Assembly: GCA_030324005.1 (NCBI GenBank) | Contig: JARDVH010000167.1 | Coordinates: forward strand, 1,494,730 to 1,558,729 | Source of the DNA: Negaprion brevirostris | Lineage: Eukaryota | DNA: 64,000 nt | Reading direction: 5' to 3' | Shown: piece by piece, positions 55,801 through 61,800 of the stretch | How positions within the stretch are numbered: position 1 is the stretch's first letter | Layout of the letters: every line of letters starts with the position of its first letter | Position numbers: made by a program

Positions 55801-58800
55801 AACTGAAGGCTCTGTATTTAATGCACATAGTATTCAAAATAGGACAGATGAGCAGATGGCAATAAATAAGTACAATTTGACAGTCATTACAGAGACATGG
55901 CTGCAGGATGACACACAATGGTTCTTGAATATTAAAGAGTATGTGATATTTAGGTAGGACCGGAAGCTAGGCAAAGATAAAGAGGGTGGCTCTGTTAATT
56001 AATAATTAGCATACTAGAGAAGAACAACCTAAGTTCAGGAATCCAGGATGTAGAAGCGGTTTGGATAGAGATGAGGGTGGCACTGTTGTTAGCACTGCTG
56101 CCTCACAGCGCCAGGGACCCGCGTTTGATTCCTGGATTGGGTCATTTGTCTATGTGGAGCTTGCACATTCTCCCTGTGTCTGGGTGGGTTTCCACCAGGT
56201 GCTCACATTCTAAAAGGTGTGCTGGTGAGCTGCATTGACCTGAGCAGGCACCAGACTGTGGCAACTAGGGAAATTTCACAGTAACTTCATTGCAGTGTTA
56301 ATGTAAGCCTTACTTGTGACTAATAAATAAATTTTACTTTTCCTTTATCAGCAGGGTTCGTGACAAGTGTAATTATTCCATTTAAATGCAAACATTTTGC
56401 ACAGAACTCTTCAAGTAAGATCAGGTCATATTCATCCAAGTAGAGTTAGAATTCCTTTGAACTAAGCTTCTTTCTGCTGTTAGGATTCTTTTAACTGGTG
56501 GGTTGCTCATTTGCTTTTGATCAGGTATTTTACCAGCATCAAGGTTCAATTCATTTAACAGCCAATTTCAATTACTGACCAGGTGACATAATCAAGTTCC
56601 ACGTAAAAAACAAGTTCCATTCTAAGTTTTTCAAGCATACAAAGTATACAGGATTTATAATGATTACTTGTTTTCCCCCTCAGAAGAAGAAGAAAATTTC
56701 CAACAACCTCCACTGCCATCCAATGAACCTGAGAAGAAGCAACAGAGTGCTGGGAGTGGAACAGGTACAGTGACTGTTTTTGAATAGTTTAAAGTTAAAG
56801 GAGAAGATAATTCCAGCATTAACATTAGCCATTTTGATATGAAGTAAGCATATAATTCCCCTTGGAGCAGGGCAGTTTTCCTATCTTTGGCATCACTGGA
56901 TCAATTGGGTTTGGCTTGAGCATCATTTACCTCCCATACTCACTTTGCCACACTTTGTACTTATTTGGAAAAACTAGCTACCTATAAACACATTAATGTG
57001 TTTATAATACTGAAGTCTGGAACTTAATTTACCTTCTTTACTCCGCCTCTCTCTGCTTCATGTCTAACTACGCAGTGGGTATCATCAACTGGGAGATCAT
57101 CACACCCAATCATCACCCAATGACTGTACAGGTGCACTTTCCATCAGCGGTCACTGTATAGAGCAAAACAAAGTATTGCAGATGCTGGAAGTCTGAAATA
57201 AAAACAGAAAATGCTGGAAGTATTCAGCAGGCTGGGCCACATCTGTGGAGGAAAAAAAGATTTAACATAAGTTGATGATGTTTCAGGTTCTGATGAAAGG
57301 TCATTCACTTGAAAAGTTAACTGTTTTTCTCTTTCTACAGATGCAGCCTGATCTGCTTTTTTTAAGCATTTTTATGTCACTATATGGTGTTCAGGAATGG
57401 AAATTTGAATTGATTTTCCCTTTCTACTTCTAGTTCCCTGGTTGATATCAAACAACTTGGTGCAGCCATACTTTAAATCTTACTTGGAGGTATCTAGTAT
57501 TGCATCATTTTCTATAATTAGGCCATTTTGGTGTGTGCATTTTCCTTTTAAGAACAATTCCTATTTGATGATGATGGTGTTCTTTTATAGCTTAAAGTAC
57601 TTGTCCCTTAATTTTTAAAATTTTAATCAAGAAACTTGCCACTTCAAAACAGAGAAATACTTTTCCAAGTGTGAAAACATATTGGGTTTCCTTCAGACAG
57701 TTTGTGGTAGTCTGCTTCAAATGGCTCATAGTAGTGAGCAAGTTCCTTCCTCGTTTAGGAAGATGATTTTGATAGGGTGATACTGAATAGTTTTATCTGT
57801 TTAAAGTGCTAAGATTGACGTATAGAATTTATAATGATACCAATCCTGCTCGATGAATCGAGAAGCAGATTCATTGTCAAATAAGTCATTTGAGCATCTT
57901 TCTAACAGATGGACCGCAAATGTCTCTCTAGCAACCTCCTTTCTCAACAGGAAATTAAGCATTTCTGCTTAGTCTCGTAAACCTTTTAATATTCCTGAAC
58001 TATTCTCTTTCCAAAGTAAGTATTTGAACTAAAGGGATATTTCAAAAAAATTCTATTATCTACTAAGTGTCTCACCGAAAAGTGACATTTAAAACTTTTT
58101 AATTTTTTTAATTTTGAAGTTGTCTGTGTCATATGTGAAGTAATATATTTGATGATGTCATGTCTTGGATAGATAACTGAGGTTTGACCCCTGACCCTGC
58201 CAGTTGAGCATTGCATTGATGTAGAAGAATAAAATATATCTGAGACCTTCATATGGCTAATCTATTTAAAGTTTTTGTTGTTAATATCTATATTGGGGAT
58301 TTATGCAACTATAACATTTGGTTCAGATAGTTTTCTCCATAACCTGGCAACGGAACCTTTAAAGATCTGCATCTTGCCAAAGGTAGTTCTTTTGAAAGTT
58401 AATTGCATTTATGGAGGTGACCAGTTTTAGTAATCTAATTACTTTGAAGCATAATAGTTTCTCGAGTCCAACTGGAAACCAGTACGTGTCCTAGTTCCCA
58501 AAAAATGTTACCATACATAGTTAGTATGCTACCATACATAGTTAGTATGCTAAATTTTTCTTAAAAGTAATTATCTTTCTTCCAATCATCACTCCCTACA
58601 GTTTTCCCTATGGGGAGACAGGAAACCAGTCTAGCTTTTTTTCTCCATTTTTATGTACTTGTGAGGCAGCAGCAAAGCTCATAAGTATTGATTAGTGTAT
58701 GTGGGGGCCACTTGAGAAGGATTTATAAAATAAGCCAATTTAGTTCTGCCTGAATTACTTTGTAATGACTCAATTACCTTTTATTTCTGTGCAAAAGAGA

Positions 58801-61800
58801 TTTAAGTGAATAAATTAGCAGATCATCATTGGGGAAGTGTCACCACTAAAGGACAGTTTATAGATGTAATACACAATTGCTGTCACACCTTTAAGATTGT
58901 AATATAGACATCTGTGTATACTTTGTGGTTTAGTGAAACAGACTTCTGTCATTCAGAGGCTGACAAGGGCCCTAGAGTTACCCTGGGGAACAGCAATGTA
59001 GATGTCTCTGAAAAGGTCAACTTGACACAGGCTCGGACGATCGACCCACTGCTCTGTCTGCTTTGATAAAAATCAGATAAACTTAAGACTGTTAATTGAT
59101 CTGTAGCCCACTTAAATGTTGGCCATGCATATCTTCATTGCATGTGATTAGTGTAGAAAGCAAATAAGACTCATTGCTTAAAATGTGAAATGTTTGTGAT
59201 ACAGAATAAAAATCAAAACAGAACTTATCTAGAAAGGGCACAGTTGAGCAGTACGTTATCTGCCTTGGTTTCGCATATGTGTCTGTGAACTAATTATCAG
59301 TGTAACTCAATAGCTACATATGTTCAATTGGATCATGAAAGTGTGAACTTGCACAGATGCACTTAATTTCCAGTAGGTTGAAAACAATGAATTGTAAACT
59401 AGAGAACACAGAATTTGATAAGACAACTCTAAGACTCAAAGTGNNNNNNNNNNNNNNNNNNNNNNNNNNNNNNNNNNNNNNNNNNNNNNNNNNNNNNNNN
59501 NNNNNNNNNNNNNNNNNNNNNNNNNNNNNNNNNNNNNNNNNNNGGCAACTAGGGAAATTTCACAGTAACTTCATTGCAGTGTTAATGTAAGCCTTACTTG
59601 TGACTAATAAATAAACTTTACTGAGAGATGAGAAATGATAAAGGCCATTTGTGGGAGGCCCCCTACAATCCCCACATGACAGGATGGAGTATACAGGGAG
59701 AAATAATGGGAGTTCATCAGGAAGATATAGCAATAATCATGAGGGATTTTAAACTCCGTATAGACAGAAGAAATCACATGGACACGTGTAGCCTCGGTGA
59801 GTTCCTGGACTATTTTTGGGATAGTTTCTTATTCTGGGGCCAGCCATAGAGCAGGTTTTATGTGACCTGGTATTGTGCATCAAGATAGGATTAATTAATG
59901 ATTTCACAATGAAGGCAGCCAAGGTAATAGCAATCAGAATATAATTTAATTTTACATTTGAGGTTTTAAACTCAAATAGTGGCAATTATGGGAACATGGA
60001 AGTGAGCTTGCTGATTTGGTTCAGAGAGGTCAGTGGCAGACATTTATGACGAGATTTCAGAAAACACTGAATAGATGCATTCAACCAAGAAAGAAAACTT
60101 CCAATAAGTGAACCCACCATCCTTGGTTAACTGAAAAATTTAAAGGTAGTGTCAAACTTAAAGTAAAGCATATAATTGTGCAAGGAAGGGTGGCACTTTG
60201 CCAGAATATAAAAAAGCCAGAATGACTGAAGTGTTAGTGAAGAGGGAAAAATTAGAGCACAAAAGAATGCTAACTAGAAATATAAAAATGGCAAGAGTTT
60301 CTATAGATATGGACAAACAAAGAGTTAATGAAGTGAATATTGGTTCTCTGGAAACTGAGTCTGGGGAATTAATAATGGAAAATAAGGAGATGGCAGATGA
60401 ACTGAAGAGGTATTTTGCATTAGTACTCATCTTCATTTCAGAGGATACAAATAACATCCTAAAAATAACTGTGCGTCCAGAAATGGAAGAAAGGAACTCA
60501 GGAAAATTACAGTCAGCAATGAAGTCGTGCTGAGAAAATAGTTGGAGCTGCAGGCTTATCAATCTAGTGTTGATGGACTTCATCCTATGGTTTTAAAAAT
60601 GGCTAGTGATGTAGTTGACACATTGGTTTTAATTGTCCAAACTTCCCTAGATTTGAGGAAGGTTCCATTAGATTGAAAAATAGTGAATCTAACTCCTTTA
60701 TTAAAAAGAGGGAGAGAGAAAGCATGAAACGACAGGCCAGTTAGCTAAACATGTGAAAGAGGGAAAATGTTAGAAGCTATTTGTAAAGATGTTACAGTTG
60801 GGAACTTAGAGAAAAAATAAGGTAATTAGGTCAGGTTTTGCGAAGGGGAAGTCGTATTTAACCAATTTATTGGAGATATGTGAAAAGATAACGTTCACTG
60901 TGGATAAAGGGGAACCAGTGGGTGCTCTGTACTTGAATTTGATAAGGCATTTGGTAAGGTTCCACTTGAACTTCATTGTGGAGAATAAAAGCTCATGATG
61001 AGGGGATATCATGTTGGAATGAATGCAATATTGGCTTGCTCTTAGGAAACAGAGGATAGACATAAGTCATTTTCTGGTTGACAAGATGGAATGAGTGGTG
61101 TACCGCAGGCTTCAGTGCTGGGGGTTTAACTTCTTATAATTTACATAAATACCTTTGGTCCCTTCATCCAAGTTATGGTTGCTCAATTTACTGATGATAC
61201 AATGTTTGGTCAGAAAGTAAGTTGTGAAGAGGACACAAGGAGGATACAAATATATATATATATTACATATATATACAAGTAAGTGAGCAAAGACCTGGCA
61301 AATAGAGAAGAATGTGAGAAAATGTGAAATTTCCCATTTTGGCAAGAAGAATTAAAAAGAAACATTTTATCTAAATGGTGAGAGATGCAGAGGGGTCTGG
61401 GCGCCCTTGTGCATGAATGGCAAAAAATTAGTCTTGCAGGTACAGCAAGTAATTAAGAAAGCTAATAGAATTTTATCACTTTTTTGGTGACAAGAATTGA
61501 ATATAAAAGGATATGCTTCAGTTATACAGGGCATTGCTGAGATCACATCTGGATTACTGTGCACACTGCTGGTCTTATTTAAGGAAGGATATAAATGCAT
61601 TGGGAACAGTTCAGAGAAGATTGACTTGACAAATAGCTGAAATGAGAGGGTTGACATATGACGAATGGTTAGACAGGCTTGGCTTTTTGCTGGAGTTTGG
61701 AAGAGTTAGAAGTGACTTTATTGAAAAATATAATACCCTGAGTGGTCTTGATAGGATGGATGTGGAAAGGATGATTTGTGGGAGAATCTCGTACTTGGGG

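What the first reader, a model, noticed from the sequence alone, without database searches (positions are those of the whole stretch)
56067..59632. 3.55-kb SINE-bracketed cargo block inside a CR1, with a 9-bp TSD and apparently the 3' end of a foreign gene
Seen: the CR1 endonuclease frame breaks at ...VWIEMR (56075) and resumes as EMRNDKG (59624). agagatgag is duplicated at 56067-56075 and 59624-59632. The insert starts with a full V-SINE and ends with a SINE tail. The two tails are identical over 72 bp (56260-56331 vs 59544-59615), whereas a third copy (~26052-26140) differs at several sites. Between them lie ~3.1 kb of mostly unique DNA with a good 81-nt exon, a candidate terminal exon and a 3'UTR-like tract. 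Inference: this is either SINE-to-SINE read-through transduction or recombination capturing an intron-containing gene segment (composite-transposon-like), or an assembly chimera at a collapsed SINE. The 100-N gap at 59444-59543 makes the artefact explanation at least as likely.
[Added by the scan's program, not by the reader: the finding's places include an assembly gap (unread letters, written N; its length is only estimated) at 59444 to 59543. Whether the letters on both sides are continuous or in frame is not known: test that first.]
Basis: partly seen in the sequence, partly recalled or inferred. Interest (0 to 1): 0.72.

Follow-up and report, generated by a model that had tools for sequence, protein, structure and literature searches.

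The report
SINE in CR1; misjoined SKAP2 block
An ordinary SINE insertion inside an old CR1 retrotransposon appears to carry 3.1 kb of another gene (one SKAP2 exon with its introns), but this is most likely a join error at the SINE repeat in a gap-rich draft assembly and not a real gene capture.

Summary
The observations hold. A decayed CR1-like LINE is interrupted at 56075. It resumes at 59633 at the adjacent endonuclease residues, with a perfect 9-bp duplication. A 263-bp SINE follows the left copy of the duplication, and a 79-bp SINE tail (78/79 identical) precedes the right copy.

The 3.1 kb between them is unique in the window. It holds one real exon, 56684-56764, matching SKAP2 residues 250-275 (23/26). 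No other SKAP2 exon is present, and the proposed terminal exon and 3'UTR are not supported. The window's own genes are an EBF-type gene and a TMEM230/134-type gene, so the SKAP2 piece is foreign to this locus.

The right-hand "SINE tail" is a contig end. In this scaffold contigs typically reach 76-84 bp into repeats (5 of 6 cases), and this one reaches 79 bp. Another 100-N gap separates two copies of the same 66 bp. The left side of the gap shows no SINE sequence, so continuity across it is unknown.

Best reading (about 0.78): a real, ordinary SINE-in-CR1 insertion plus a chimeric join that attached a SKAP2-locus contig through a near-identical SINE. Real SINE-homology-mediated capture remains possible (about 0.15). 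Pol III read-through is very unlikely (38 T-runs). Reads are needed to settle it.

The parts
55814..56075 (+). Left part of a decayed CR1-like LINE (N-terminal part of the endonuclease domain), ending at the insertion site
   Evidence: tblastn: P0043 residues 36-97 match 55814-55996, E 7e-8. The piece 55999-56073 aligns to P0039 135-163; 0 of 200 shuffles reach its score.
56067..56075 (+). Target-site duplication, left copy (AGAGATGAG)
56076..56338 (+). SINE copy, head to tail, 263 bp. Under the favoured reading its head belongs to this locus and its last bases to a SINE at the SKAP2 locus.
   Evidence: Head matches 16640-16766 (83%) and tail matches 26056-26153 (85%). The tail end ...AATAAATAAA(T/C)TTTACT is shared with the other copies.
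56339..59443 (+). 3,105-bp block of SKAP2 gene DNA (intron, one exon, intron), foreign to this locus
   Evidence: Unique in the window. Exon match. No other SKAP2 exon in the window.
56684..56764 (+). SKAP2 coding exon, 81 nt, with intact acceptor and donor
   Evidence: 23/26 identical to residues 250-275 of SKAP2 isoform X3 of Mustelus asterias (P0124). E 3.8e-4 against 5.8 billion proteins. Splice context.
57165..57267 (+). Fragment of a small interspersed repeat inside the block
   Evidence: 76-82% matches at 11601-11673, 38065-38118 and 39693-39764
59444..59543 (.). Assembly gap, 100 N, length not measured. Not filled or looked up.
59544..59622 (+). Last 79 bp of a SINE at the start of the next contig; a contig-end overhang, not a truncated element
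   Evidence: 78/79 identical to 56260-56338. The length matches overhangs at other gaps: 41435-41513 is 79 bp, 38204-38280 is 77 bp, 16073/16080-16155 is 76-83 bp.
59624..59632 (+). Target-site duplication, right copy (AGAGATGAG)
59633..62080 (+). Remainder of the same CR1-like LINE: rest of the endonuclease, reverse transcriptase, C-terminal region and 3' end (the end is approximate)
   Evidence: P0038 4-66 matches 59649-59831, then colinear matches run to 61977. Colinear tblastx to a second copy at 18096-19667 on the minus strand. 3'-end comparison.

Best explanation
Two things are superimposed.

(1) A real and ordinary nested insertion. A SINE retrotransposed into the endonuclease-coding part of an old CR1-like LINE and made a 9-bp target-site duplication. 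The true locus is most likely CR1-left / one SINE / CR1-right.

(2) An assembly error. A 3.2-kb contig from the SKAP2 locus begins with the tail of a near-identical SINE. It was joined to the CR1-left contig through the shared SINE sequence, and the small gap was closed with SINE reads. The true continuation (SINE tail + CR1-right) was left as the next contig behind an unsized 100-N gap.

Shown: the TSD, the CR1 continuity, the SINE identity, the SKAP2 exon, the foreign gene context, and the way this assembly ends contigs in repeats. Inferred: that the SINE1-to-block junction comes from another locus, and that the join is false.
For: - CR1 continuity and TSD. These show that CR1-left, the SINE and CR1-right were once contiguous with one SINE-sized insert.
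- Both junctions are complete SINE 3' ends with different flanks...TTTACT|TTTCC and ...TTTACT|GAGAG. One SINE head is therefore paired with two alternative tails and flanks, the signature of a fork in a repeat.
- The contig after the gap starts 79 bp inside the SINE. In 5 of 6 cases where a contig of this window ends inside a repeat whose terminus lies in the contig, the overhang is 76-84 bp. 9 of 30 gap flanks are flush with a repeat seen elsewhere in the window.
- At the 100-N gap 2345-2444 the two flanks are the same 66 bp with one mismatch. 100-N gaps here are thus unsized and can separate redundant contig ends that differ by a single base.
- There are 15 gaps in 64 kb.
- The block carries a conserved, splice-competent SKAP2 exon. 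The window's own genes are an EBF-type DNA-binding-domain exon (28546-28800, minus strand, E 5e-29) and the last exon of a TMEM230/134-type gene (50584-50799, plus strand, E 1.9e-12), only about 6 kb upstream on the same strand.
- No other SKAP2 exon lies in the 56 kb upstream or 7 kb downstream.
- skap2 is listed among the genes beside a HoxA cluster in a teleost (PMC2080641, one passage read). No homeobox was found in 382 ORFs.
Against: - No reads, mate pairs or second assembly could be consulted, so the false join is inferred and not seen.
- A pair-based scaffolder needs links to join CR1-left to the block, and true links would exist only if the arrangement were real. The real-capture model needs no assembler error except an unclosed gap.
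- The other two SINE fragments in the window are only 83-85% identical. A 72-bp identity between two independent copies therefore requires a young subfamily, whose existence I could not show.
- The SINE and the SKAP2 exon have the same orientation. An RNA-mediated real event would require this, but it is also expected half the time by chance.
Confidence: 0.78

Rival explanations
1. Real DNA-level capture. A segment of the SKAP2 gene lying between two direct SINEs was copied into the SINE of this CR1 by homologous recombination. This could be gene conversion using the two SINEs as homology arms, or excision as a circle followed by reintegration into the resident SINE. The original 9-bp duplication would then lie outside the composite.
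For: The structure as assembled is exactly what this predicts: head and tail SINE sequence 78/79 identical, and a single TSD pair outside. The exon is still intact, as expected for a recent copy. No assembler error is needed beyond an unclosed gap.
Against: The left contig ends at 59443 without any SINE head sequence, so the second SINE is not shown to touch the block. The right 'tail' is fully explained as a contig overhang. Such events are rare, while repeat-induced misjoins are common in an assembly with 15 gaps per 64 kb.
Confidence: 0.1
2. Real RNA-level chimera. During reverse transcription of a SINE RNA at this target, the LINE reverse transcriptase switched template to an unspliced SKAP2 pre-mRNA at a sense-oriented intronic SINE. 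It then switched back at an upstream intronic SINE, giving SINE / pre-mRNA segment / SINE within one TSD pair.
For: The SINE and the SKAP2 exon have the same orientation, and the introns are retained. There is a single TSD pair. Template-switch chimeras of LINE reverse transcriptases are mentioned in PMC5499810 (passages read).
Against: It needs two homology-guided switches and more than 3.1 kb of unspliced RNA. There is no independent sign of it. All the arguments for a contig-end artefact apply.
Confidence: 0.05
3. SINE-to-SINE read-through transduction. RNA polymerase III started at the SINE's internal promoter at the SKAP2 locus, read through 3.1 kb to the next SINE tail, and the whole RNA was retrotransposed.
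For: The insert begins at a SINE head and ends at a SINE tail next to the TSD.
Against: There are 38 runs of T4 or longer on the sense strand between 56332 and 59443 (12 of T5 or longer, 3 of T6 or longer). The first lies inside the SINE1 tail at 56332 and the second at its end at 56338. That oligo-T terminates Pol III is established knowledge, not tested here.
Confidence: 0.01
4. Mixed haplotypes. The individual is heterozygous for a rearrangement with a breakpoint in this SINE (for example a SINE-SINE unequal crossover product), and the assembler strung both alleles one after the other.
For: One SINE head is followed by two alternative tail and flank versions that differ at one base. Another gap shows redundant flanks with a single mismatch.
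Against: It would require SKAP2 to lie on the same chromosome in direct orientation. Nothing in the window suggests that.
Confidence: 0.05

Closest known systems
Nested retrotransposon insertion (SINE inside a LINE) by target-primed reverse transcription
   Same: A perfect 9-bp target-site duplication; the SINE head abuts the left copy and a complete SINE 3' end abuts the right copy; removing the insert restores adjacent residues of the LINE endonuclease.
   Different: As assembled, 3.1 kb of unrelated gene DNA and a gap lie between the head and the tail.
Repeat-induced chimeric contig or scaffold join in short-read assemblies
   Same: The junction lies inside a multi-copy element and next to a gap. 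The contig-end overhang has the assembly's typical length. The displaced block carries a gene from elsewhere.
   Different: The defining evidence (discordant reads or mate pairs) could not be examined here. The general phenomenon is recalled knowledge; one search gave only a listing of papers on it, and none was read.
3' transduction by L1 and SVA elements in mammals (recalled, not looked up)
   Same: Flanking genomic DNA carried along within one TSD pair.
   Different: There the cargo lies downstream of the element and ends in a poly(A) tail, from a Pol II transcript. Here the cargo lies between two SINE sequences, retains introns and is full of Pol III terminators.
Shark SINE families with LINE-derived tails (SacSINE1 and relatives; PMC5499810, abstract and passages read)
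   Same: Modular head, body and tail. The tail is not related to the CR1 3' end in this window, which fits a different partner LINE. That paper reports an L2 partner for SacSINE1-type elements.
   Different: I could not assign this copy to a named family; no repeat library was available. From memory only, the body looks more like the Deu-domain SINEs.

Membership tests
LINE-mediated SINE insertion | Direct target-site duplication immediately outside the element's 5' and 3' ends | tested here: met
   AGAGATGAG at 56067-56075 and 59624-59632, abutting the SINE head (56076) and one base after the SINE tail end (59622)
LINE-mediated SINE insertion | Removing the insert and one TSD copy restores a continuous host sequence | tested here: met
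   The left and right pieces map to adjacent residues of the LINE endonuclease in 3 of 14 reference proteins (P0039, P0031, P0058). P0039 and P0031 beat 200 of 200 shuffles. For P0058, 2 and 4 of 200 shuffles reach the observed scores.
LINE-mediated SINE insertion | Only the element lies between the two TSD copies | tested here: not met
   As assembled, 3,105 bp of SKAP2 DNA and a gap also lie between them. Whether this holds in the genome is not testable here.
Repeat-induced assembly misjoin | The junction lies in a multi-copy repeat, at or next to a contig end or gap | tested here: met
   SINE copies lie at three further places in the window. The gap is at 59444-59543. The following contig starts 79 bp inside the SINE.
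Repeat-induced assembly misjoin | The joined block belongs to another locus | tested here: met
   One SKAP2 exon without its neighbouring exons, in a window whose own exons are EBF-type and TMEM230/134-type
Repeat-induced assembly misjoin | Reads or mate pairs contradict the join | not testable with these tools
   No reads, depth or other assembly of this genome were available
Read-through (3' transduction-like) retrotransposition from the SINE promoter | An uninterrupted transcript from the element through the cargo is plausible | tested here: not met
   38 T4-or-longer runs on the sense strand, the first two at 56332 and 56338
Read-through (3' transduction-like) retrotransposition from the SINE promoter | A source locus with the same SINE followed by the same cargo | not testable with these tools
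   No genome of this species could be searched
SKAP2 gene | Sequence match to SKAP2 protein with exon-like boundaries | tested here: met
   23/26 identity to residues 250-275 of P0124. It was the only protein with E<=10 among 29 candidates. Splice sites cag|AA and ACAG|gt.
SKAP2 gene | Neighbouring SKAP2 exons (PH, linker, SH3) in order on the same strand | tested here: not met
   tblastn of P0124 against the whole window: the next best hit has E 1.3 and is noise
CR1-clade LINE | ORF2 with an apurinic-type endonuclease followed by a reverse transcriptase, colinear with CR1-type proteins | tested here: met
   Colinear tblastn matches from 55814 to 61977 to proteins carrying PF03372, PF14529 and PF00078. 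The best named relatives are from sharks, rays, birds and reptiles.
CR1-clade LINE | Phylogenetic placement within CR1 rather than L2 or another clade; characteristic 3' end | not tested
   No tree was built and no repeat library was available. 'CR1-like' rests on the nearest named hits.
V-SINE superfamily | The conserved central V domain | not tested
ARAGORN found no tRNA-like gene in 55900-59800.

The most novel reading that the evidence does not exclude
The arrangement is real. A 3+ kb, intron-containing piece of the SKAP2 gene bracketed by two sense-oriented SINEs was copied into a resident SINE inside a CR1. The route would be either DNA recombination using the SINEs as homology arms (gene conversion or reintegration of an excised circle) or double template switching of a LINE reverse transcriptase on unspliced pre-mRNA. 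That would be a SINE-bracketed, composite-transposon-like movement of genomic DNA in a shark.
Probability: 0.15. Interest if true: 0.55.

Novelty: not a real feature. Interest (0 to 1): 0.15.

Why it matters
If the favoured reading is right, the value is practical. This scaffold misplaces a SKAP2 exon about 6 kb downstream of a TMEM230/134-type gene, which could produce a false gene model or a false 'exon capture' call. It also shows how to recognise such joins from sequence alone: one repeat head with two complete repeat tails, a contig overhang of the assembly's usual length, and a gene fragment without its neighbouring exons. If the arrangement were real, it would be a rare documented case of SINE-homology-mediated duplication of intron-containing gene DNA in a cartilaginous fish.

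Tried and rejected
- Pfam on short CR1 and block ORFs found nothing at E<=1. Pfam on a second CR1 copy and young CR1 tails gave only sub-threshold noise. One such hint, Anoctamin at 21608-21799 (E 0.018), is rejected: no PDB match at E<=1.
- HMMER of the right CR1 piece against 1.84 billion representatives gave 3 hits. All are repetitive IQ/fn3-type or unrelated proteins with no match back to the window, so they are spurious.
- phmmer of both CR1 pieces against PDB gave 0 hits at E<=10.
- ARAGORN on 55900-59800 found 0 genes.
- My crude splice-site scorer printed nothing and missed the true exon, so it was abandoned. A listing of acceptor-to-stop frames gave a phase-compatible 'terminal exon' at 57759-57812, but nothing supports it.
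- The ORF around the 57-nt candidate exon (57409-57615) shared words with 76 candidates; none scored E<=10.
- Candidate exons were searched one by one.
- A search of the window for the other copy of a TSD for the SINE at the block's left edge found only chance 8-9-mers.
- tblastx of the left CR1 piece against the window found no second endonuclease copy.
- Not checked: the closed collections, and any genome or reads of this species. The one scan of prokaryotic genome contigs was not used because it cannot bear on the question. No supplements were consulted.
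Full report
**What is in the sequence**

The window is a gap-rich vertebrate scaffold with 15 N runs in 64 kb. Five of them are exactly 100 N. Its retroelement and gene matches are closest to sharks and rays, and nothing suggested human sequence.

- AGAGATGAG lies at 56067-56075 and again at 59624-59632. The 9-mer occurs only 3 times in the window.
- A 263-bp SINE (56076-56338) follows the left copy.
- After the 100-N gap (59444-59543), the sequence 59544-59622 repeats the last 79 bp of that SINE with one mismatch, 56332 T against 59616 C.
- The other two SINE fragments in the window (16640-16766, 26056-26153) are only 83-85% identical to SINE1.
- An alignment of the three tails shows that both 56338 and 59622 are complete SINE 3' ends (...AATAAATAAA[T/C]TTTACT) followed by different flanks.

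**The flanks are one LINE**

Pfam, PDB and a search of 1.84 billion representative proteins gave nothing useful for the short, decayed flank ORFs. A younger CR1 C-terminal piece elsewhere in the window (46716-47036) did better:
- It retrieved 173 proteins at E<=1e-5 among 533 candidates. Many are from sharks, rays, birds and reptiles, and several are full-length with endonuclease (PF03372, PF14529) and reverse-transcriptase (PF00078) domains.
- Used as tblastn probes, these proteins match the region colinearly. P0043 residues 36-97 match 55814-55996 (E 7e-8). P0038 residues 4-66 match 59649-59831. The matches then continue through the reverse transcriptase to 61977.
- Local alignments place the left piece (ending ...VWIEM) and the right piece (starting EMRNDKG...) on adjacent residues, with only the TSD-encoded EM overlapping. 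The coordinates are 163/162 in P0039, 117/116 in P0031 and 58/57 in P0058.
- That is 3 of 14 references. P0061 agrees within two residues. P0038 lacks the N-terminal part and matched only the right piece well. The remainder gave low-scoring scattered alignments.
- For P0039 and P0031, none of 200 shuffles reached the observed scores. For P0058, 2 and 4 of 200 did.

CR1-left, a SINE and CR1-right were therefore once contiguous: an ordinary nested insertion.

**What the block is**

The block 56339-59443 is unique within the window, apart from a ~100-bp interspersed-repeat fragment and a 24-bp palindrome.

Candidate exons were searched one at a time. I did not build or search a joined spliced model.
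- The ORF around the 81-nt exon hit a single protein, src kinase-associated phosphoprotein 2 (SKAP2) isoform X3 of Mustelus asterias (E 3.8e-4 against 5.8 billion sequences).
- The exon (56684-56764, codons 56686-56763) is 23/26 identical to residues 250-275 of that 343-residue protein. Its splice sites are good.
- tblastn of the whole protein against the whole window found no other SKAP2 exon; the next best hit has E 1.3 and is noise. In particular, the SH3-domain sequence that follows residue 275 is absent.
The 57-nt candidate has no homologue. AATAAA occurs 4 times against 2.9 expected.

The block is SKAP2 intron, one internal exon, and more intron.

**The block is foreign to this locus**

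I scanned all 382 stop-to-stop ORFs of 55 aa or more (without X) against Pfam. Two gave hits at E<=0.001:
- an EBF/COE DNA-binding-domain exon at 28546-28800 on the minus strand (E 5e-29);
- the last domain-coding exon of a TMEM230/134-family gene at 50584-50799 on the plus strand (E 1.9e-12), ending ...[10 protein letters not shown].

The SKAP2 exon lies about 6 kb downstream of that terminal exon, on the same strand, with no SKAP2 exon in the 56 kb upstream. skap2 is listed among the neighbours of a HoxA cluster in a teleost (PMC2080641, one passage read), and no homeobox was seen here. My recollection that human SKAP2 lies beside HOXA on chromosome 7, while EBF4 and TMEM230 lie on 20p, is memory and not a tool result.

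**The gap and how this assembly behaves**

The left flank of the gap (to 59443) has no SINE sequence and no match elsewhere in the window. The right flank begins 79 bp before the SINE's end. The two sides are not demonstrably continuous, and no frame crosses the gap.

Other gaps show how this assembly treats repeats:
- 9 of 30 gap flanks are flush with a repeat found elsewhere in the window.
- Most of these are the 3' end of young CR1 copies.
- Where the repeat's terminus lies inside the contig, the contig reaches 76-84 bp into the repeat in 5 of 6 cases: 2261/2264-2344, 16073/16080-16155, 38204-38280, 41435-41513 (79 bp) and 59544-59622 (79 bp). The exception is 47373-47403, at 31 bp.

The 'SINE tail' is therefore a contig-end overhang of the usual length, not a truncated element.

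At the 100-N gap 2345-2444 the two flanks are the same 66 bp with one mismatch. The 100-N gap at 41335-41434 lies inside a single CR1 where, by comparison with the copy at 61.4-62.1 kb, about 0.5 kb is missing (inference). 100-N gaps here are thus unsized and can separate redundant contig ends.

**Interpretation**

The data show one SINE head (next to CR1-left) and two complete SINE tails with different flanks. One tail leads into SKAP2 DNA. The other leads into CR1-right and is the only one that closes the TSD.

The simplest account is a fork in a repeat that the assembler resolved wrongly. A SKAP2-locus contig starting with a SINE-tail overhang was joined to CR1-left, and the short gap was closed with SINE reads. 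The true continuation was then appended behind an unsized gap. I put this at about 0.78.

It is an inference, because no reads could be examined. A pair-based scaffolder would need false links, which the shared 72-79 bp overhang could supply. I also could not show that a young SINE subfamily with identical tails exists.

**Rivals**

- Real capture by SINE homology at the DNA level (about 0.10), or by double template switching on unspliced SKAP2 pre-mRNA (about 0.05). Both fit the structure as written and the shared orientation of SINE and exon. Both are rare, and neither predicts anything here that the artefact does not.
- Mixed haplotypes (about 0.05).
- Read-through from the SINE's own Pol III promoter (about 0.01). 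The sense strand has 38 runs of T4 or longer, starting inside the SINE1 tail.

**Family names**

'CR1-like' rests on the domain order and the nearest named relatives; no tree was built. 'V-SINE' was not tested. PMC5499810 (abstract and passages read) describes shark SacSINE1-type elements whose tails derive from an L2 LINE. The tail here is unrelated to the CR1 3' end in this window, so a non-CR1 partner is plausible.

**Verdict**

The observations are real and the nested SINE is ordinary. The 'cargo' is most likely not a biological feature. Interest is low unless reads show the composite in single molecules.

Noticed in passing
window 28546-28800 (-): Exon encoding part of an EBF/COE transcription-factor DNA-binding domain (PF16422, profile 28-85 of 231, E 5e-29...[35 protein letters not shown]...). 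It lies just left of the 510-N gap at 28906-29415.
   Followed up: partly
window 50584-50799 (+): Last domain-coding exon of a TMEM230/134-family gene (PF05915, profile 81-119 of 119, E 1.9e-12), ending ...[14 protein letters not shown]. The SKAP2 block lies about 6 kb downstream on the same strand.
   Followed up: partly
window 2279-2344 and 2445-2510: The two flanks of the 100-N gap 2345-2444 are the same 66 bp of a CR1 3' end with one mismatch (2294 C vs A). This is an unmerged contig overlap or two collapsed copies, so the gap size is not real.
   Followed up: yes
window 16073-16155, 38204-38280, 41435-41513, 2261-2344, 59544-59622: Contig ends reach 76-84 bp into repeats before a gap. This is a consistent overhang that looks like the assembler's k-mer length.
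   Followed up: yes
window 41083-41513: The 100-N gap 41335-41434 lies inside one plus-strand CR1, between its coding region (...AFIARGIEY) and its last 79 bp. By comparison with the CR1 at 61.4-62.1 kb, about 0.5 kb is missing, not 100 bp.
   Followed up: partly
window 18096-19667 (-): A second decayed CR1-like LINE, colinear at the protein level with 60596-62042. Young CR1 C-terminal pieces at 9187-9437 and 46716-47037 both run into gaps.
   Followed up: partly
window 58509-58550: A 21-bp unit (ACCATACATAGTTAGTATGCT) occurs twice in tandem inside the SKAP2 intron block.
   Followed up: no
window 56983-57006: A perfect 24-bp palindrome in the block.
   Followed up: no
window 31600-32400 (+): A long open frame of low-complexity, Ser/Leu/Cys/Val-rich translation (TC-rich simple sequence) right after the 370-N gap at 31210-31579.
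   Followed up: no
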